From: an uncultured Bacillota bacterium
GTDB taxonomy: Bacteria; Bacillota; Dehalobacteriia; UBA7702
Assembly (NCBI GenBank): GCA_902796855.1
Contig: CADBQN010000016.1
Location: forward strand, 7,038 to 71,037
Length of the DNA stretch: 64,000 nt
Direction: 5' to 3'
The notes beneath the pieces are model-generated. The model did no database searches. It was not told where the DNA came from and was given only the letters and a program-made list of their open reading frames with translations. Positions 12,245 through 14,605 of this stretch are shown piece by piece; position 1 is the stretch's first letter; each line of letters begins with the position of its first letter. Made by a program: the position numbers and the translations under genes.

Positions 12245-14605
12245 TTACACGGCAAAGGAGAGGGCTGACAGGAGATAACGCAGATCGGGAAGGACGGCGT
12301 ATTGTCCGAACGGGCTTCGGGCGTCTCTTTCGCCTTCTTCACTGTTTTGTTCCTGCTGTTGCTGCTGCTGTTGCTGCTGCTGTTGCTGTTGCTGTTGTTG
12401 CTGCTGTTGCTGCTGCTGTTGCTGTTGCTGCTGCTGCTGTTGTTGCTGCTGTTGTTTCTGTTTTTCTTCTTCCTGCTGCTTTTCCTTTTCCTTCTGTTCC
12501 TGTTCTTCGTCCTTTTCTTCTTCCTCTTCTTCGTCTTCATCCTCATCTTCGTCATCGCCTTCGCGATCCTCAATGGAATAACCGTAATCAGAGGGTTTTT
12601 TAAAGGACTCGTTTTCGATGATGCCGGCTTTATAGGCTTCCGCTACGACCATGCGCCAGATGACCGTCGGGTATTGGCCGCCGTAGACATTGGCCATATA
12701 CTGTGCCGAGCCGTCGTCACTGACATCGTTGTCGTAGCCCATCCAGACCATGCCGACGATCTGCGGGGTATATCCGGCGAACCAGGCATCCTTCGTGCCG
12801 TATTTCCCTTTGAAGGTCCTTGTGTCGGGGAGCTGGGTCGTACCGGTTTTGCCGCAGATAAAGAGGCTGCCGATGTTGGCTCTTGTCGCTGTCCCGCCGG
12901 TGACGACGCCGTGAAGGAGCTGGCTCATGGAATAGGCCGTCGATTCCTTCATAACCTGTTCAAAGTCGGCTTCGTGTTCATAGACCGGCGTATCGTTTTC
13001 CGCGGCGTAGCGGCTTTCGATGCGGTGGATCGTGGTGAGATCCGTCTTATAACCGCCGGTGGCGTAACAGCTGTAGGCCGTGGCCATATTCAAAGGCGAT
13101 ACGCCGTAGGTGATGCCGCCCAGAGCGAGAGAGGGATTGTCGTCGTCATCGACGAGGGGAAGACCGAGCTTTTTCGCGAATTCCCAGCCTGTTGTGGTTC
13201 CGATTTCCTGAAGGAGGCGAACGGCGCAGGTATTGATGGAGTATTTAATGGCGGTGCTCATGGAGACTTCGCCGCGATAGCCGCCGCCGGAGTTTTTCGG
13301 TTTATAGGAACCGGTCAGGGGCGCGTCGAGAATGGTATAGTTAGGAGAATAACCTTTTTCCAGAGCGGGGCCGTACACGGCGAGGGGCTTGATGGTGGAG
13401 CCGGGCTGCCGTTTCATATCCGTCGCCCGGTTATAGCCGAAGCGGGTGTCGTATTCTCTGCCGCCGGCCATACCGTAGATTTCGCCGGTTTTCGGGTTGG
13501 AGAAAATCGCCGCGCTTTCAAGGCGGTCGTCGCCGTAGCCTTTCGGGAAGCTGTAATTCCCGGCCAGATAGATGTCGTCAAGTTTATTCTGGATTTCCGG
13601 CGTCAGCGTTGTATAGATGCGGAAACCGCCGGTATAAACGGAGCCGGTGCTGTAACCGAGTTCCACGAGGATGGAATCGGCCTCCTTGATGGCGTAGTCC
13701 GTGAAATAGGAATGACCTTCGGTACTGTCGTTGGCGGATTGGATATCGAGGATGATGGCTTCTTCCTTGGCGGCGTTCGCTTCGTCCGCTGTGATCGCCT
13801 GGGATTTTACCATTTTATCGAGGACGCGGTCGCGCACGCTGATCGCGCGGTCCATATCCTGGGTCGGCGAATACGCGTTGGGGGAAGGCAGCATGCCGAC
13901 GAGGGTCGCCGTTTCGCTGAGGGTCAGGTCGCTGACATTCTTGTTGAAATAATATTTCGCCGCGGAACCGATGCCGTAGATGTTCTGGCCCATGAAGACT
14001 TCGTTTAAGTAGAAGGTGAGAATCTCATCCTTCGTGTACATCTTTTCCAGTTTCAGGGAAACGATGGCCTCTTTGATTTTGCGGTCGATGGTTTTGTCCT
14101 GAGAGTTCAGAACGGCGTTCCGCGCCAGCTGCATCGTGATGGTCGAACCGCCCTGGGCCGCGCCGCGGTGGCGGATATCGGCGACAGCGGCGCCGATGAT
14201 GCGGATGAAGTCGATGCCGTTATGATCGTAAAAACGGGTATCTTCCGAAGCGATCACCGCCGGAATGATGTAGGAATCCTCATAGGCGGCGTATGTGACC
14301 ACATCACGAAATTCCGACCCGCTGACCTCGAGAAGGAGATTCCCTTCGATATCATACAGCTCGGATTTGGACGCCTGCATGATCCCGTTTTCATCGAGTT
14401 CGTTCAGAGCGCCTTCAATGTCGTCGTAATTGGATTTAACGAGGAAGCAGCCGTAGGCGCCGACGGAGATAATGCAGAGCAATATGACAAGAATTGCGAT
14501 GAGAATCACGCGTTTCAGCGTGGAATGCTTTCTTCTCTTTTTTTTCTTCTTCTTTTTCTTTTTATCAGAGGGTGAATCCGAAAAGGAATATTGTTTTTTA
14601 GCCAT
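12245..14605 (-). CDS. Class A penicillin-binding protein (PBP1A: transglycosylase + transpeptidase) with poly-K N-terminus and E/K/Q-rich C-terminal tail
   Basis: GT51 motifs (EDxRFYxHxGID, RKxxE), transpeptidase STIK and KTGT motifs, single N-terminal TM helix; GGGAGG RBS. Confidence 0.9.
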   Translation of the reverse strand: MAKKQYSFSDSPSDKKKKKKKKKRRKHSTLKRVILIAILVILLCIISVGAYGCFLVKSNYDDIEGALNELDENGIMQASKSELYDIEGNLLLEVSGSEFRDVVTYAAYEDSYIIPAVIASEDTRFYDHNGIDFIRIIGAAVADIRHRGAAQGGSTITMQLARNAVLNSQDKTIDRKIKEAIVSLKLEKMYTKDEILTFYLNEVFMGQNIYGIGSAAKYYFNKNVSDLTLSETATLVGMLPSPNAYSPTQDMDRAISVRDRVLDKMVKSQAITADEANAAKEEAIILDIQSANDSTEGHSYFTDYAIKEADSILVELGYSTGSVYTGGFRIYTTLTPEIQNKLDDIYLAGNYSFPKGYGDDRLESAAIFSNPKTGEIYGMAGGREYDTRFGYNRATDMKRQPGSTIKPLAVYGPALEKGYSPNYTILDAPLTGSYKPKNSGGGYRGEVSMSTAIKYSINTCAVRLLQEIGTTTGWEFAKKLGLPLVDDDDNPSLALGGITYGVSPLNMATAYSCYATGGYKTDLTTIHRIESRYAAENDTPVYEHEADFEQVMKESTAYSMSQLLHGVVTGGTATRANIGSLFICGKTGTTQLPDTRTFKGKYGTKDAWFAGYTPQIVGMVWMGYDNDVSDDGSAQYMANVYGGQYPTVIWRMVVAEAYKAGIIENESFKKPSDYGYSIEDREGDDEDEDEDEEEEEEKDEEQEQKEKEKQQEEEKQKQQQQQQQQQQQQQQQQQQQQQQQQQQQQQQQQQQEQNSEEGERDARSPFGQYAVLPDLRYLLSALSFAV
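12353..12454 (-). repeat. (CAG/CAA)34 trinucleotide tract encoding 34 consecutive Gln within the PBP1A C-terminal tail
   Basis: Plus strand reads (CTG/TTG)n uninterrupted for 102 nt, in frame with the PBP ORF. Confidence 0.9.

What the first reader, a model, noticed from the sequence alone, without database searches (positions are those of the whole stretch)
12353..12454. 34-residue poly-glutamine tract (mixed CAG/CAA) in the disordered C-terminal tail of PBP1A
The class-A PBP ends with an extraordinary low-complexity tail: ...EDEDEDEEEEEEKDEEQEQKEKEKQQEEEKQK-(Q)34-EQNSEEGE.... The DNA is an uninterrupted 102-nt (CTG/TTG)n run on the plus strand. The interspersed CAA codons among CAG are the pattern expected if protein-level poly-Q is selected while pure-repeat slippage is damped. 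Even so, this is a candidate hypervariable SSR that could change tail length between strains. The N-terminus is also homopolymeric (K10 region from an A/T run at about 14540-14570). A long poly-Q on a periplasm/wall-facing synthase is unusual and might mediate wall or S-layer interactions or phase-separation-like clustering.
Basis: seen in the sequence. Interest (0 to 1): 0.5.

Follow-up and report, generated by a model that had tools for sequence, protein, structure and literature searches.

The report
Poly-glutamine stretch in PBP1A tail
A cell-wall-building enzyme of an uncultured gut/rumen Clostridia-type bacterium really does end in a floppy acidic tail containing 33-34 glutamines in a row; this is a rare composition for a bacterium, but it is best read as one species' version of the disordered tail already known on such enzymes.

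Summary
Window 12353-12454 encodes 34 uninterrupted glutamines (22 CAG, 12 CAA), residues 718-751 of a 786-aa class A PBP (12245-14605, minus strand). The ORF reads through the tract to a stop followed by a terminator hairpin.

Five independent metagenome assemblies carry the gene, so it is not a misassembly. They show three tract alleles (Q34, a rearranged Q34, Q33). Everything else in the protein is identical.

The tract sits in a 117-aa extracytoplasmic tail (14.2 kDa, net charge -22) with three parts: an acidic D/E block, the polyQ, and a 23-aa hydrophobic end peptide. The closest relatives (76-86% identity over the aligned region) keep this plan and a tail length of 102-122 aa. They fill the middle block with poly-N, G/N, G/N/Q or G/T/N repeats instead, and all strain-level indels in the extracytoplasmic portion of those species fall in that block.

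The best reading is a lineage-specific, slippage-remodelled filler of the anionic C-terminal disordered region known from Bacillus subtilis PBP1 (121 aa, 14.9 kDa). There, composition matters rather than order, and the region is thought to probe pores in peptidoglycan. That function is inferred here, not shown.

Verdict: new member of a known kind, moderate-low interest.

The parts
12245..14605 (-). Class A penicillin-binding protein gene (PBP1A family), 786 aa plus stop
   Evidence: ORF list. TIGR02074 scores 536.8 bits against a cutoff of 508.75. Pfam Transgly 7e-59 and Transpeptidase 8e-32.
14537..14563 (-). K9 run (aa 15-23) within the basic cytoplasmic N-terminal tail DKKKKKKKKKRRKH
   Evidence: A 9-aa indel in the same poly-K region separates P0005 from P0151 in a sister species.
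14438..14509 (-). Predicted membrane anchor (aa 33-56, VILIAILVILLCIISVGAYGCFLV). It places everything C-terminal outside the cytoplasm.
   Evidence: Hydrophobic stretch in the translation. AlphaFold helix 26-58. The topology is inferred from the positive-inside rule and the known aPBP architecture.
13811..14329 (-). GT51 glycosyltransferase domain (aa 93-265) with EDTRFYDHNGID, GGSTITMQ and RKIKE motifs
   Evidence: Pfam PF00912. E121, D122, G152, S154, T155, Q159, K176 and E179 are invariant in 60 homologues.
12734..13510 (-). Transpeptidase domain (aa 366-624) with S403-x-x-K406, S456-x-N458 and K586-T-G-T589
   Evidence: Pfam PF00905. The motif residues are invariant in 60 homologues.
12248..12598 (-). 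C-terminal tail (aa 670-786): 117 aa, 14.2 kDa, pI 4.05, net charge -22
   Evidence: AlphaFold pLDDT is below 50 for aa 684-699 and 737-786, while blocks 90-680 average 61-98, mostly >=85.
12455..12571 (-). Acidic D/E(K,Q) block (aa 679-717)
   Evidence: An acidic block at this position is present in all 13 clade members examined.
12353..12454 (-). Q34 tract (aa 718-751): 22 CAG + 12 CAA, with higher-order 12/18-nt periodicity
   Evidence: There are three alleles among five assemblies: Q34, a rearranged Q34 and Q33.
12248..12316 (-). Hydrophobic/amphipathic terminal peptide SPFGQYAVLPDLRYLLSALSFAV (aa 764-786)
   Evidence: It falls on the ordered side of the charge-hydropathy boundary. A related peptide follows the low-complexity block in 10 of 13 clade members and is alignable among the closest ones (A[VI]LP[DNE]..R). 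It is invariant in cluster 2 and near-invariant in the others while the low-complexity block varies.
12190..12218 (-). Intrinsic-terminator-like hairpin (12-bp stem followed by a U run), 27 nt after the stop codon
   Evidence: RNA fold -20.3 kcal/mol, z = -3.7. The sequence was read directly. The consensus scan did not list it.

Best explanation
The (CAG/CAA)34 run encodes the neutral, polar middle block of an anionic, intrinsically disordered, extracytoplasmic C-terminal tail on an otherwise ordinary class A PBP.

The tail has three parts: an acidic D/E block, an uncharged low-complexity block, and a short hydrophobic terminal peptide. Selection appears to act on the tail's presence, its length (about 100-120 aa), its negative charge and its reading frame. 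It does not appear to act on the identity of the filler. In this species the filler became poly-Q. In sister lineages it is poly-N, G/N, G/N/Q or G/T/N repeats.

The block is built and continually remodelled by slippage or unequal recombination of 3- to 18-nt units. This makes it the only part of the protein that differs between strains.

By analogy with the B. subtilis PBP1 IDR, the tail most likely acts as a flexible polymer probe. It would enter pores or gaps in the peptidoglycan and bias the synthase toward sites that need filling. This functional step is inferred and was not tested here.
For: Shown:
- aPBP identity, with catalytic motifs intact.
- The tail is predicted to be disordered: it lies on the disordered side of the Uversky boundary and has low pLDDT in a model whose body is confident.
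- The tail is 117 aa, 14.2 kDa, net charge -22, pI 4.05. The B. subtilis PBP1 IDR is 121 aa, described as an 'anionic 14.9 kDa' domain (PMC9732909; PMC13270295).
- The closest relatives (68-79% full-length identity; 76-86% over the aligned region) keep the acidic block and a 102-122 aa tail but carry entirely different low-complexity fillers.
- In 28 within-species comparisons of sister clusters, the ~670-aa body has no gap columns in 27. The exception is a poly-K indel. All other length changes lie in the low-complexity block: 9 tail alleles among 14 proteins spanning 103-109 aa, and 10 among 12 spanning 112-121 aa.
- In the window's own species there are three tract alleles in five assemblies (Q34, Q34 with an 11-codon block shifted by 6 codons, Q33). 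The rest of the protein is identical. The 9 other nucleotide differences in the gene between the window and L093 are all third-position synonymous.
- Apparent SNP density is 8/102 in the tract against 19/8259 outside it, Fisher P=7e-10.
- The 12/18-nt higher-order periodicity fits unit-wise slippage.

From the literature:
- Heterologous and scrambled IDRs restore B. subtilis PBP1 function, and a folded domain does not.
- The IDR is not needed for glycosyltransferase activity in vitro.
- The model is that the IDR enters gaps in peptidoglycan (PMC9732909).
Against: - There is no functional data for this protein or organism. The gap-sensing role is pure analogy.
- The B. subtilis IDR follows an FN3 domain and needs no specific terminal motif. 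Here there is no FN3 domain, and a conserved hydrophobic end peptide suggests something beyond a featureless polymer.
- AlphaFold gives a helix for aa 691-738 (the E/K/Q lead-in plus about 21 Q) at pLDDT 58-70. Part of the region may therefore be helical rather than fully disordered.
- Length constraint rests on few lineages. More distant clade members have tails of 82-141 aa.
- The envelope type of the organism (monoderm, wall thickness) was not established.
Confidence: 0.68

Rival explanations
1. Neutral junk: the low-complexity block, including poly-Q, is a functionless slippage product tolerated at the C-terminus of the enzyme. Neither its length nor its composition is under selection.
For: - The block is the only indel-prone part of the protein, and its composition differs in every lineage.
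- Three of 13 clade members (P0005, P0010, P0011) lack the terminal peptide.
- The B. subtilis IDR deletion has only conditional phenotypes (PMC9732909).
Against: - Tail length stays at 102-122 aa across the closest lineages despite complete turnover of composition.
- The reading frame is always preserved through to a terminal peptide that is invariant or near-invariant within species clusters.
- Two rearranged alleles in this species still give Q34 and Q33.
- The acidic block is retained in all 13 members.
Confidence: 0.15
2. Glutamine-specific structural role: the E/K/Q-rich lead-in plus poly-Q forms a long single alpha-helix or coiled coil. This would act as a spacer or self-association module (clustering, or hydrogen bonding to glycan strands), as in eukaryotic polyQ proteins.
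For: - AlphaFold predicts one helix over aa 691-738 at pLDDT 58-70.
- All three alleles remain 100% pure Q despite DNA rearrangement.
- The literature notes that polyQ tends to sit in a helical context and to mediate coiled-coil interactions (PMC7247214).
Against: - The closest relatives use poly-N or Gly-rich repeats (helix breakers) at the same place, so helicity and Q chemistry are not conserved requirements.
- pLDDT is only moderate and falls below 50 for the second half of the tract.
- Purity is expected anyway for a young tract that changes by slippage rather than by point mutation.
Confidence: 0.1
3. Adaptive contingency locus: the repeat is a hypermutable switch that diversifies an exposed surface epitope or tunes tail length between strains, for example against phage or host factors.
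For: - The tract is the mutational hot spot of the gene (P=7e-10), with three alleles in five assemblies.
- Sister species carry 9-10 tail alleles per 12-14 proteins.
Against: - The repeat units are multiples of three, so no on/off frameshift switching is possible.
- Observed length variation is tiny (33-34 Q; spans of 9 aa or less in sister species).
- Mixed CAG/CAA codons leave no pure run longer than 4 units.
- No phase-variation context is present. The neighbours are housekeeping genes.
Confidence: 0.05
4. Assembly or annotation artefact: the tract is a collapsed or chimeric repeat, or the true ORF ends before it.
For: Repeats are classic sources of short-read misassembly, and the contigs are k87/k141 short-read assemblies.
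Against: - Five independent assemblies, including a 694-kb contig, carry the tract in frame.
- Allele A and allele B were each recovered twice independently.
- No internal exact repeat approaches the 87-nt k-mer length. The longest block shared between alleles at a shifted position is 11 codons (33 nt).
- The peptide after the tract is homologous to the end peptides of relatives.
- A terminator follows the stop codon.
Confidence: 0.01

Closest known systems
C-terminal intrinsically disordered region of Bacillus subtilis PBP1 (PonA) (Brunet et al. 2022, PMC9732909; PMC13270295)
   Same: - It is an extracytoplasmic tail at the C-terminus of a class A PBP of a Bacillota member.
- The size is almost the same (121 aa / 14.9 kDa against 117 aa / 14.2 kDa).
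- It is anionic, polar and depleted in hydrophobic residues.
- Its sequence is not conserved among homologues while its presence is.
   Different: - B. subtilis has an FN3 domain between the transpeptidase domain and the IDR. Here the tail follows the transpeptidase domain directly.
- Here the middle of the tail is a pure homopolymer (Q33-34), and the tail ends in a conserved hydrophobic peptide.
- In B. subtilis scrambled IDRs work, so no terminal motif is implied there.
- Function was not tested here.
IDR of the anti-sigma factor RsgI (B. subtilis and relatives; PMC9732909)
   Same: It is an extracytoplasmic, compositionally biased and poorly conserved tail. It is interchangeable with the PBP1 IDR in experiments, which illustrates that composition rather than order matters.
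   Different: It belongs to a different protein family and has a different output (regulated intramembrane proteolysis). No rsgI-like gene was examined in this window.
Ser/Thr-rich extracytoplasmic IDRs of streptococcal membrane proteins (PMC12041528; abstract seen)
   Same: They are low-complexity extracytoplasmic IDRs on cell-envelope proteins of Bacillota, with lineage-specific composition.
   Different: Those are S/T-rich and glycosylated. The window tail has only 6 Ser and no Thr in 117 aa, so O-glycosylation is not expected. Some sister lineages (P0006, P0008, P0012) are T-rich.
Eukaryotic polyQ tracts with CAA interruptions (for example huntingtin or ataxin type; general description in PMC7247214)
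   Same: It is an uninterrupted Q run of more than 30 residues encoded by mixed CAG/CAA, with length polymorphism by slippage and a possible helical lead-in.
   Different: [quoted passage not shown] There is no evidence of coiled-coil partners or aggregation.
LpoA/LpoB activators of E. coli aPBPs (functional analogy drawn in PMC9732909)
   Same: It is proposed to couple aPBP activity to the state of the peptidoglycan mesh by reaching through or into it.
   Different: Lpo factors are separate outer-membrane lipoproteins and are essential for aPBP activity. Here the probe would be a covalently attached tail.

Membership tests
Class A penicillin-binding protein (PBP1A family, bifunctional GT51 + transpeptidase) | Whole-protein match to the curated family model above its cutoff | tested here: met
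   TIGR02074 PBP_1a_fam scores 536.8 bits against a cutoff of 508.75, E=6e-161.
Class A penicillin-binding protein (PBP1A family, bifunctional GT51 + transpeptidase) | N-terminal membrane anchor followed by a GT51 domain with conserved Glu motifs (EDxxFxxHxG, RKxxE) | tested here: met
   Hydrophobic aa 33-56 and AlphaFold helix 26-58. PF00912 covers aa 93-265. E121, D122, H128, G130, K176 and E179 are invariant in 60 homologues.
Class A penicillin-binding protein (PBP1A family, bifunctional GT51 + transpeptidase) | Transpeptidase domain with SxxK, SxN and KTG(T/S) motifs | tested here: met
   PF00905 covers aa 366-624. S403, K406, S456, N458, K586, T587, G588 and T589 are invariant.
Class A penicillin-binding protein (PBP1A family, bifunctional GT51 + transpeptidase) | Enzymatic activity and penicillin binding | not testable with these tools
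   Requires biochemistry (lipid II polymerisation, bocillin labelling).
Extracytoplasmic C-terminal IDR of Gram-positive aPBPs (B. subtilis PBP1 type) | Located C-terminal to the catalytic domains, on the extracytoplasmic side | tested here: met
   The tail is aa 670-786, after the transpeptidase domain. The single N-terminal anchor places it outside the cytoplasm (inferred topology).
Extracytoplasmic C-terminal IDR of Gram-positive aPBPs (B. subtilis PBP1 type) | Predicted intrinsic disorder; enriched in charged and polar residues, depleted in hydrophobic and aromatic residues | tested here: met
   Charge-hydropathy: <H>=0.235 against a boundary of 0.481. Composition is Q41 E23 D10 K7 in 117 aa. 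pLDDT is below 50 for 684-699 and 737-786 in a model with mean pLDDT 82.6. Caveat: helix 691-738 is predicted at pLDDT 58-70, and the last 23 aa are hydrophobic.
Extracytoplasmic C-terminal IDR of Gram-positive aPBPs (B. subtilis PBP1 type) | Sequence poorly conserved among orthologues while presence, size and charge are retained | tested here: met
   In 13 clade members the fillers are Q, N, G/N, G/N/Q, G/T/N or P/T/E. Tails are 102-122 aa in the closest lineages, and net charge is -8 to -34.
Extracytoplasmic C-terminal IDR of Gram-positive aPBPs (B. subtilis PBP1 type) | Required for full in vivo function but not for glycosyltransferase activity; replaceable by scrambled or heterologous IDRs | not testable with these tools
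   Requires genetics, for example grafting this tail onto B. subtilis PBP1 lacking its IDR (assay of PMC9732909).
Extracytoplasmic C-terminal IDR of Gram-positive aPBPs (B. subtilis PBP1 type) | FN3 domain between the transpeptidase domain and the IDR (B. subtilis architecture; probably not a defining feature) | tested here: not met
   No FN3 hit was found in this protein. More distant homologues (46% identity or less) do carry PF00041.
Phase-variable contingency locus (simple-sequence-repeat switch) | Repeat-unit changes shift the reading frame or promoter spacing to switch expression | tested here: not met
   The units are 3, 12 or 18 nt. All observed alleles stay in frame, with the protein otherwise identical.
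Phase-variable contingency locus (simple-sequence-repeat switch) | Repeat number differs between closely related strains | tested here: met
   Q34, a rearranged Q34 and Q33 occur among strains at 99.2-99.9% local DNA identity. The range is very narrow.
Eukaryote-type functional polyQ (coiled-coil or aggregation-prone tract) | Q tract conserved as Q in orthologues and embedded in a helical or coiled-coil context with interaction partners | tested here: not met
   Orthologues at 76-86% aligned-region identity have no Q tract. The helical prediction has only moderate confidence. Interaction partners are not testable.

The most novel reading that the evidence does not exclude
The tail is not a featureless polymer but a tethered ligand. 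In this reading, an acidic block plus a neutral spacer of tunable length presents a conserved hydrophobic or amphipathic C-terminal peptide. In this species the spacer would be an E/K/Q-polyQ single alpha-helix of roughly 7-10 nm. The peptide would sit at a set distance from the synthase and bind a wall, S-layer or SCWP component or a regulatory partner. Stabilising selection would hold spacer length while slippage keeps rewriting its sequence. The compensated +6/-6 codon rearrangement and the 33/34 alleles would then be footprints of length homeostasis.
Probability: 0.12. Interest if true: 0.6.

Novelty: new member of a known kind. Interest (0 to 1): 0.33.

Why it matters
Extracytoplasmic disordered tails on Gram-positive cell-wall synthases were recognised only recently. 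How they work, and which length and composition they need, is still open (PMC9732909 names these as the next questions).

This clade offers a natural experiment. Enzymes that are 76-86% identical over the aligned region carry tails of nearly constant length and charge. Their central block has been rewritten as poly-Q, poly-N, G/N, G/N/Q or G/T/N. Strain-level indels are confined to that block.

This independently supports the idea that composition and length matter rather than sequence. It also supplies ready-made variants for chimera tests. In addition it flags a conserved end peptide that the current model does not predict.

The poly-Q itself is a curiosity: a run of 33-34 Q is very rare in bacteria. 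It is not a new mechanism.

Tried and rejected
1. AlphaFold on a 12-sequence alignment gave mean pLDDT 40.6, even for the catalytic domains. It was unusable and was repeated with 60 sequences.
2. A scan of JGI metagenome contigs with the exact 24-nt 3' flank of the tract found 0 hits.
3. A profile scan of the same collection with the conserved end of the transpeptidase domain returned 80 loci, the best at only 56% identity and none from this clade. This was no help for polymorphism.
4. The GTDB genome scan was swamped by the poly-K and poly-D/E patterns. It yielded only one clade member, L003, a Hadza gut MAG.
5. An exact look-up of the protein in the 15-billion-sequence collection found nothing, so there is no cluster of its own to inspect. 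Exact look-up of the neighbouring DUF3842 protein was used instead, and this found the Q33 allele.
6. Overlapping ORFs on the other strand and in other frames (poly-L 12302..14008 +, the S/N-rich 12142..12573 -, the A/V-rich 12217..12603 +) were rejected as shadows of the repeat within a well-supported PBP gene.
7. A C-terminal sorting signal (LPXTG or other CTERM types) was considered for the end peptide. No such NCBIfam or Pfam hit appeared at E<=0.01, and the hydrophobic stretch is too short for a membrane span.
8. The apparently split PBP gene on L096 is only a 10-N scaffold gap.
9. The weak Pfam hits to PFF1_TM, CDC45 and CCSAP are below their cutoffs and are low-complexity noise from the D/E/K/Q stretch.
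10. The terminator scan did not list the hairpin after the stop codon. Direct folding shows it.
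Full report
**Observation**

The minus-strand ORF 12245..14605 encodes a 786-aa protein. Residues 718-751 are 34 uninterrupted glutamines, encoded at exactly window 12353..12454 by 22 CAG and 12 CAA codons. The longest pure CAG run is four codons.

Tandem Repeats Finder reports the tract with period 3 (81% matches). It scores the tract higher with periods 12 (CTGCTGTTGCTG, 89%) and 18 (84%). 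The tract therefore looks built from duplicated 4-6 codon units rather than from simple triplet stutter.

Among 51 non-overlapping ORFs in the window, the only homopolymer runs of 5 or more residues are the three in this gene: K9, E6 and Q34.

**What the gene is**

- The protein is a class A PBP. TIGR02074 scores 536.8 bits against a cutoff of 508.75. Pfam Transgly covers aa 93-265 and Transpeptidase covers aa 366-624.
- The GT51 motif residues (E121, D122, K176, E179) and the transpeptidase motifs (S403xxK406, S456xN458, K586TGT589) are invariant in a 60-sequence alignment.
- An AlphaFold model built on that alignment is confident for the body. Mean pLDDT is 82.6, and most of residues 80-680 are above 85. 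It shows an N-terminal membrane helix at residues 26-58.
- With a basic cytoplasmic N-terminus and a single anchor, everything after residue 58, including the tail, is extracytoplasmic. This is inferred from the standard aPBP topology.
- The stop codon is followed 27 nt later by a 12-bp hairpin plus a U run (-20.3 kcal/mol, z = -3.7). The ORF therefore truly ends after the repeat.

**Is the tract real?**

Exact-sequence look-ups found the identical 786-aa protein on contigs from ERZ1029112 and ERZ1029114.

An exact look-up can only find identical alleles. I therefore searched for the neighbouring 139-aa DUF3842 protein and the VWA/SLH protein instead. This recovered two further assemblies that span the tract: ERZ1029116, and a 694-kb contig from JGI 3300064082. 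All read in frame through the repeat. Several of the shorter contigs carry 'STEW19' names. From memory these are cattle-rumen assemblies, so the organism is probably a rumen or gut member of the Clostridia. The closest species representative is a Hadza gut MAG labelled 'uncultured Firmicutes'.

**Polymorphism**

Writing A for CAA and G for CAG, three tract alleles exist:

| Allele | Found in | Codon pattern | Length |
|---|---|---|---|
| A | window, ERZ1029114 | AGGAAGGGGAGAGGGAGGAAGAGAGGGAGGGAGG | Q34 |
| B | ERZ1029112, ERZ1029116 | AGGAAGGGGAGGGGAAGAGGGAGGAAGAGGGAGG | Q34 |
| C | JGI 694-kb contig | AGGAAGAGGGAGGAGGGAGGAGGAAGAGGGAGG | Q33 |

- Allele B differs from allele A by an 11-codon block displaced by six codons. 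This is a gain of six codons on one side and a loss of six on the other, so length is unchanged.
- Scored as SNPs, that is 8 differences in 102 nt against 19 in the other 8259 aligned nt (Fisher P=7e-10).
- Outside the tract, the gene on the 99.2%-identical JGI contig differs from the window at 9 positions. All are third-codon-position and synonymous, and the protein is otherwise identical.
- The tract is thus the mutational hot spot of the gene and the only place where the protein varies. The observed range is just 33-34 Q.
- Alleles A and B were each recovered from two separate assemblies. The longest internally repeated block (33 nt) is well below the 87-nt assembly k-mer. Assembler noise is therefore unlikely.

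**Codon pattern**

Elsewhere in the window glutamine is 79% CAG (352 to 93). In the tract it is 65% CAG (binomial P=0.038). A longest pure run of 4 or less has P=0.013 under genomic codon usage, but P=0.13 given the tract's own composition. The interruptions clearly do not prevent remodelling by larger units.

**Anatomy and comparison**

The tail begins after a conserved K-P-x-[GDS]-[YF] motif at residue 670. It is 117 aa, 14.2 kDa, pI 4.05 and net charge -22. It has three parts:

- an acidic D/E-rich block (aa 679-717);
- Q34 (aa 718-751);
- a 35-aa end segment whose last 23 residues (SPFGQYAVLPDLRYLLSALSFAV) are hydrophobic.

Charge-hydropathy places the whole tail, the acidic block and the Q block on the disordered side. 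It places the end peptide on the ordered side. AlphaFold gives pLDDT below 50 for residues 684-699 and 737-786. It also predicts a single helix over residues 691-738 (the E/K/Q lead-in plus the first ~21 Q) at only 58-70.

The twelve closest homologues are 44-79% identical over their full length. The six closest are 76-86% identical over the aligned region. All have the basic N-tail, the anchor, both catalytic domains and an acidic block. After that block each carries a different uncharged low-complexity block:

- (GGNQGG)n in P0001;
- N/G in P0002 and L003;
- GGNTGG in P0003;
- 41 Asn with a few Asp in P0004;
- GGNTGGE in P0005;
- GGTNN in P0006;
- P/T/E-rich in P0008-P0011.

Tails are 102-122 aa in the closest lineages, counting strain variants, and 82-141 aa overall. 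In 10 of 13 members the tail ends in a hydrophobic or amphipathic peptide. This peptide is alignable among the nearest relatives, for example A[VI]LP[DNE]..R and ALFRAIALINDTR.

More distant homologues (46% identity or less) have a longer C-terminal extension instead, rich in conserved cysteines and, in many, ending in a Pfam FN3 domain.

**Sister-species populations**

The 90%-identity clusters around P0001-P0006 provide within-species samples.

- In 28 comparisons, the ~670-aa body shows no gap column in 27. The exception is a 9-aa indel in the N-terminal poly-K region of P0151 against P0005.
- Every other length difference lies in the low-complexity block.
- Cluster P0002 has nine distinct tails among 14 proteins (103-109 aa).
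- Cluster P0003 has ten distinct tails among 12 proteins (112-121 aa).
- The smaller clusters show 120/122, 110/102 and 118/122 aa.
- The terminal peptide is invariant in cluster 2 and near-invariant in the others.

The block is therefore an in-frame indel hot spot throughout the clade, and it stays within a narrow length band.

**Interpretation**

The closest precedent is the C-terminal IDR of B. subtilis PBP1.

- It is 121 aa and is described as an anionic 14.9-kDa domain.
- Its deletion impairs PBP1 function in sensitised backgrounds without affecting glycosyltransferase activity.
- IDRs from other PBP1 and RsgI homologues, and scrambled versions, restore function. A folded domain does not.
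- The proposed role is to enter gaps or pores in peptidoglycan and direct the synthase there.

The window's tail matches in position, size, charge and compositional bias. It also shows the evolutionary signature expected if composition and length matter but sequence does not.

I therefore read the poly-Q as this lineage's filler for the neutral segment of such an IDR, generated and remodelled by slippage of 3-18-nt units.

What is shown is the identity, the anatomy, the disorder prediction, the polymorphism and the comparative pattern. The pore-probing function is inferred.

**What does not fit neatly**

- There is no FN3 domain.
- A conserved hydrophobic end peptide is present, which the sequence-independent model does not predict.
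- Part of the E/K/Q-polyQ segment may be helical.

These points leave room for a tethered-ligand or ruler reading (see the section on the most novel reading).

**Rivals**

- Pure neutral junk is disfavoured. Length, charge and frame are retained, and the end peptide is conserved.
- A glutamine-specific role is disfavoured because the closest orthologues use Asn or Gly-rich repeats.
- A contingency switch is excluded in its classical form, because all units are multiples of three and all alleles stay in frame.
- Misassembly is effectively refuted.

**Novelty**

[quoted passage not shown] A Q33-34 run on a wall synthase is therefore compositionally unusual. The element it belongs to is known. 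I did not survey how many other bacterial PBPs carry poly-Q tails, so rarity among PBPs specifically is untested.

Verdict: a new member of a known kind. Its moderate value is as a natural experiment on IDR length and composition.

Noticed in passing
window 12248-12316 (-), aa 764-786; also the C-termini of P0001-P0004, P0006, P0008, P0009, P0012 and L003: A short hydrophobic or amphipathic peptide follows the low-complexity block in 10 of 13 clade members. It is invariant in cluster 2 and near-invariant in the other species clusters while the block before it varies. It is not predicted by the 'scrambled IDRs work' model of B. subtilis PBP1, matches no known CTERM sorting signal, and is not docked in the AlphaFold model (pLDDT 32-39).
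   Followed up: partly
window 14537-14563 (-), aa 15-23; P0005 versus P0151: The cytoplasmic N-terminal poly-K (K9 + RRK) is a second homopolymer in the same gene. In a sister species this region carries a 9-aa indel between strains, so it is also length-polymorphic. In B. subtilis the cytoplasmic tail of PBP1 is the GpsB-binding region (from memory and from the mention in PMC9732909).
   Followed up: partly
window 10647-12011 (+): A convergent neighbour encodes a 454-aa secreted protein with VWA and SLH domains (Pfam annotation). This implies SLH-mediated anchoring to secondary cell-wall polymers, and perhaps an S-layer, in this organism. Its envelope type was not determined.
   Followed up: no
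P0013-P0060 (homologues at 46% identity or less): More distant aPBP homologues carry a 150-300 aa C-terminal extension in place of the IDR-only tail. It contains conserved cysteines and, in many, a terminal FN3 domain (PF00041), often preceded by short N/G/S/T-rich linkers. The clade around the window appears to have lost these folded modules.
   Followed up: no
window 12340-12470 (+ strand, CTG/TTG run): As single-stranded DNA the CTG/TTG strand folds into imperfect hairpins more stable than shuffled controls (-13.5 kcal/mol, z = -3.4). Such structures are commonly invoked for CTG/CAG repeat instability.
   Followed up: partly
window 17420-17460 (+), within the MscL gene 17093-17509: A small GAAGAAGAAGCC tandem repeat encodes (EEEA)2-like residues in the cytoplasmic C-terminal helix region of the MscL homologue.
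   Followed up: partly
window 29759-29934 (+): A full-length cobalamin riboswitch aptamer (RF00174, 94.2 bits). The downstream genes were not examined.
   Followed up: no
window 32356-32522 (-) and 45137-45210 (-): Three tRNA genes were detected by Rfam. Their anticodons were not determined.
   Followed up: no
window 38564-38597: A short tandem repeat, GCCGCCGCGAAAAAA x2.3, was not examined.
   Followed up: no
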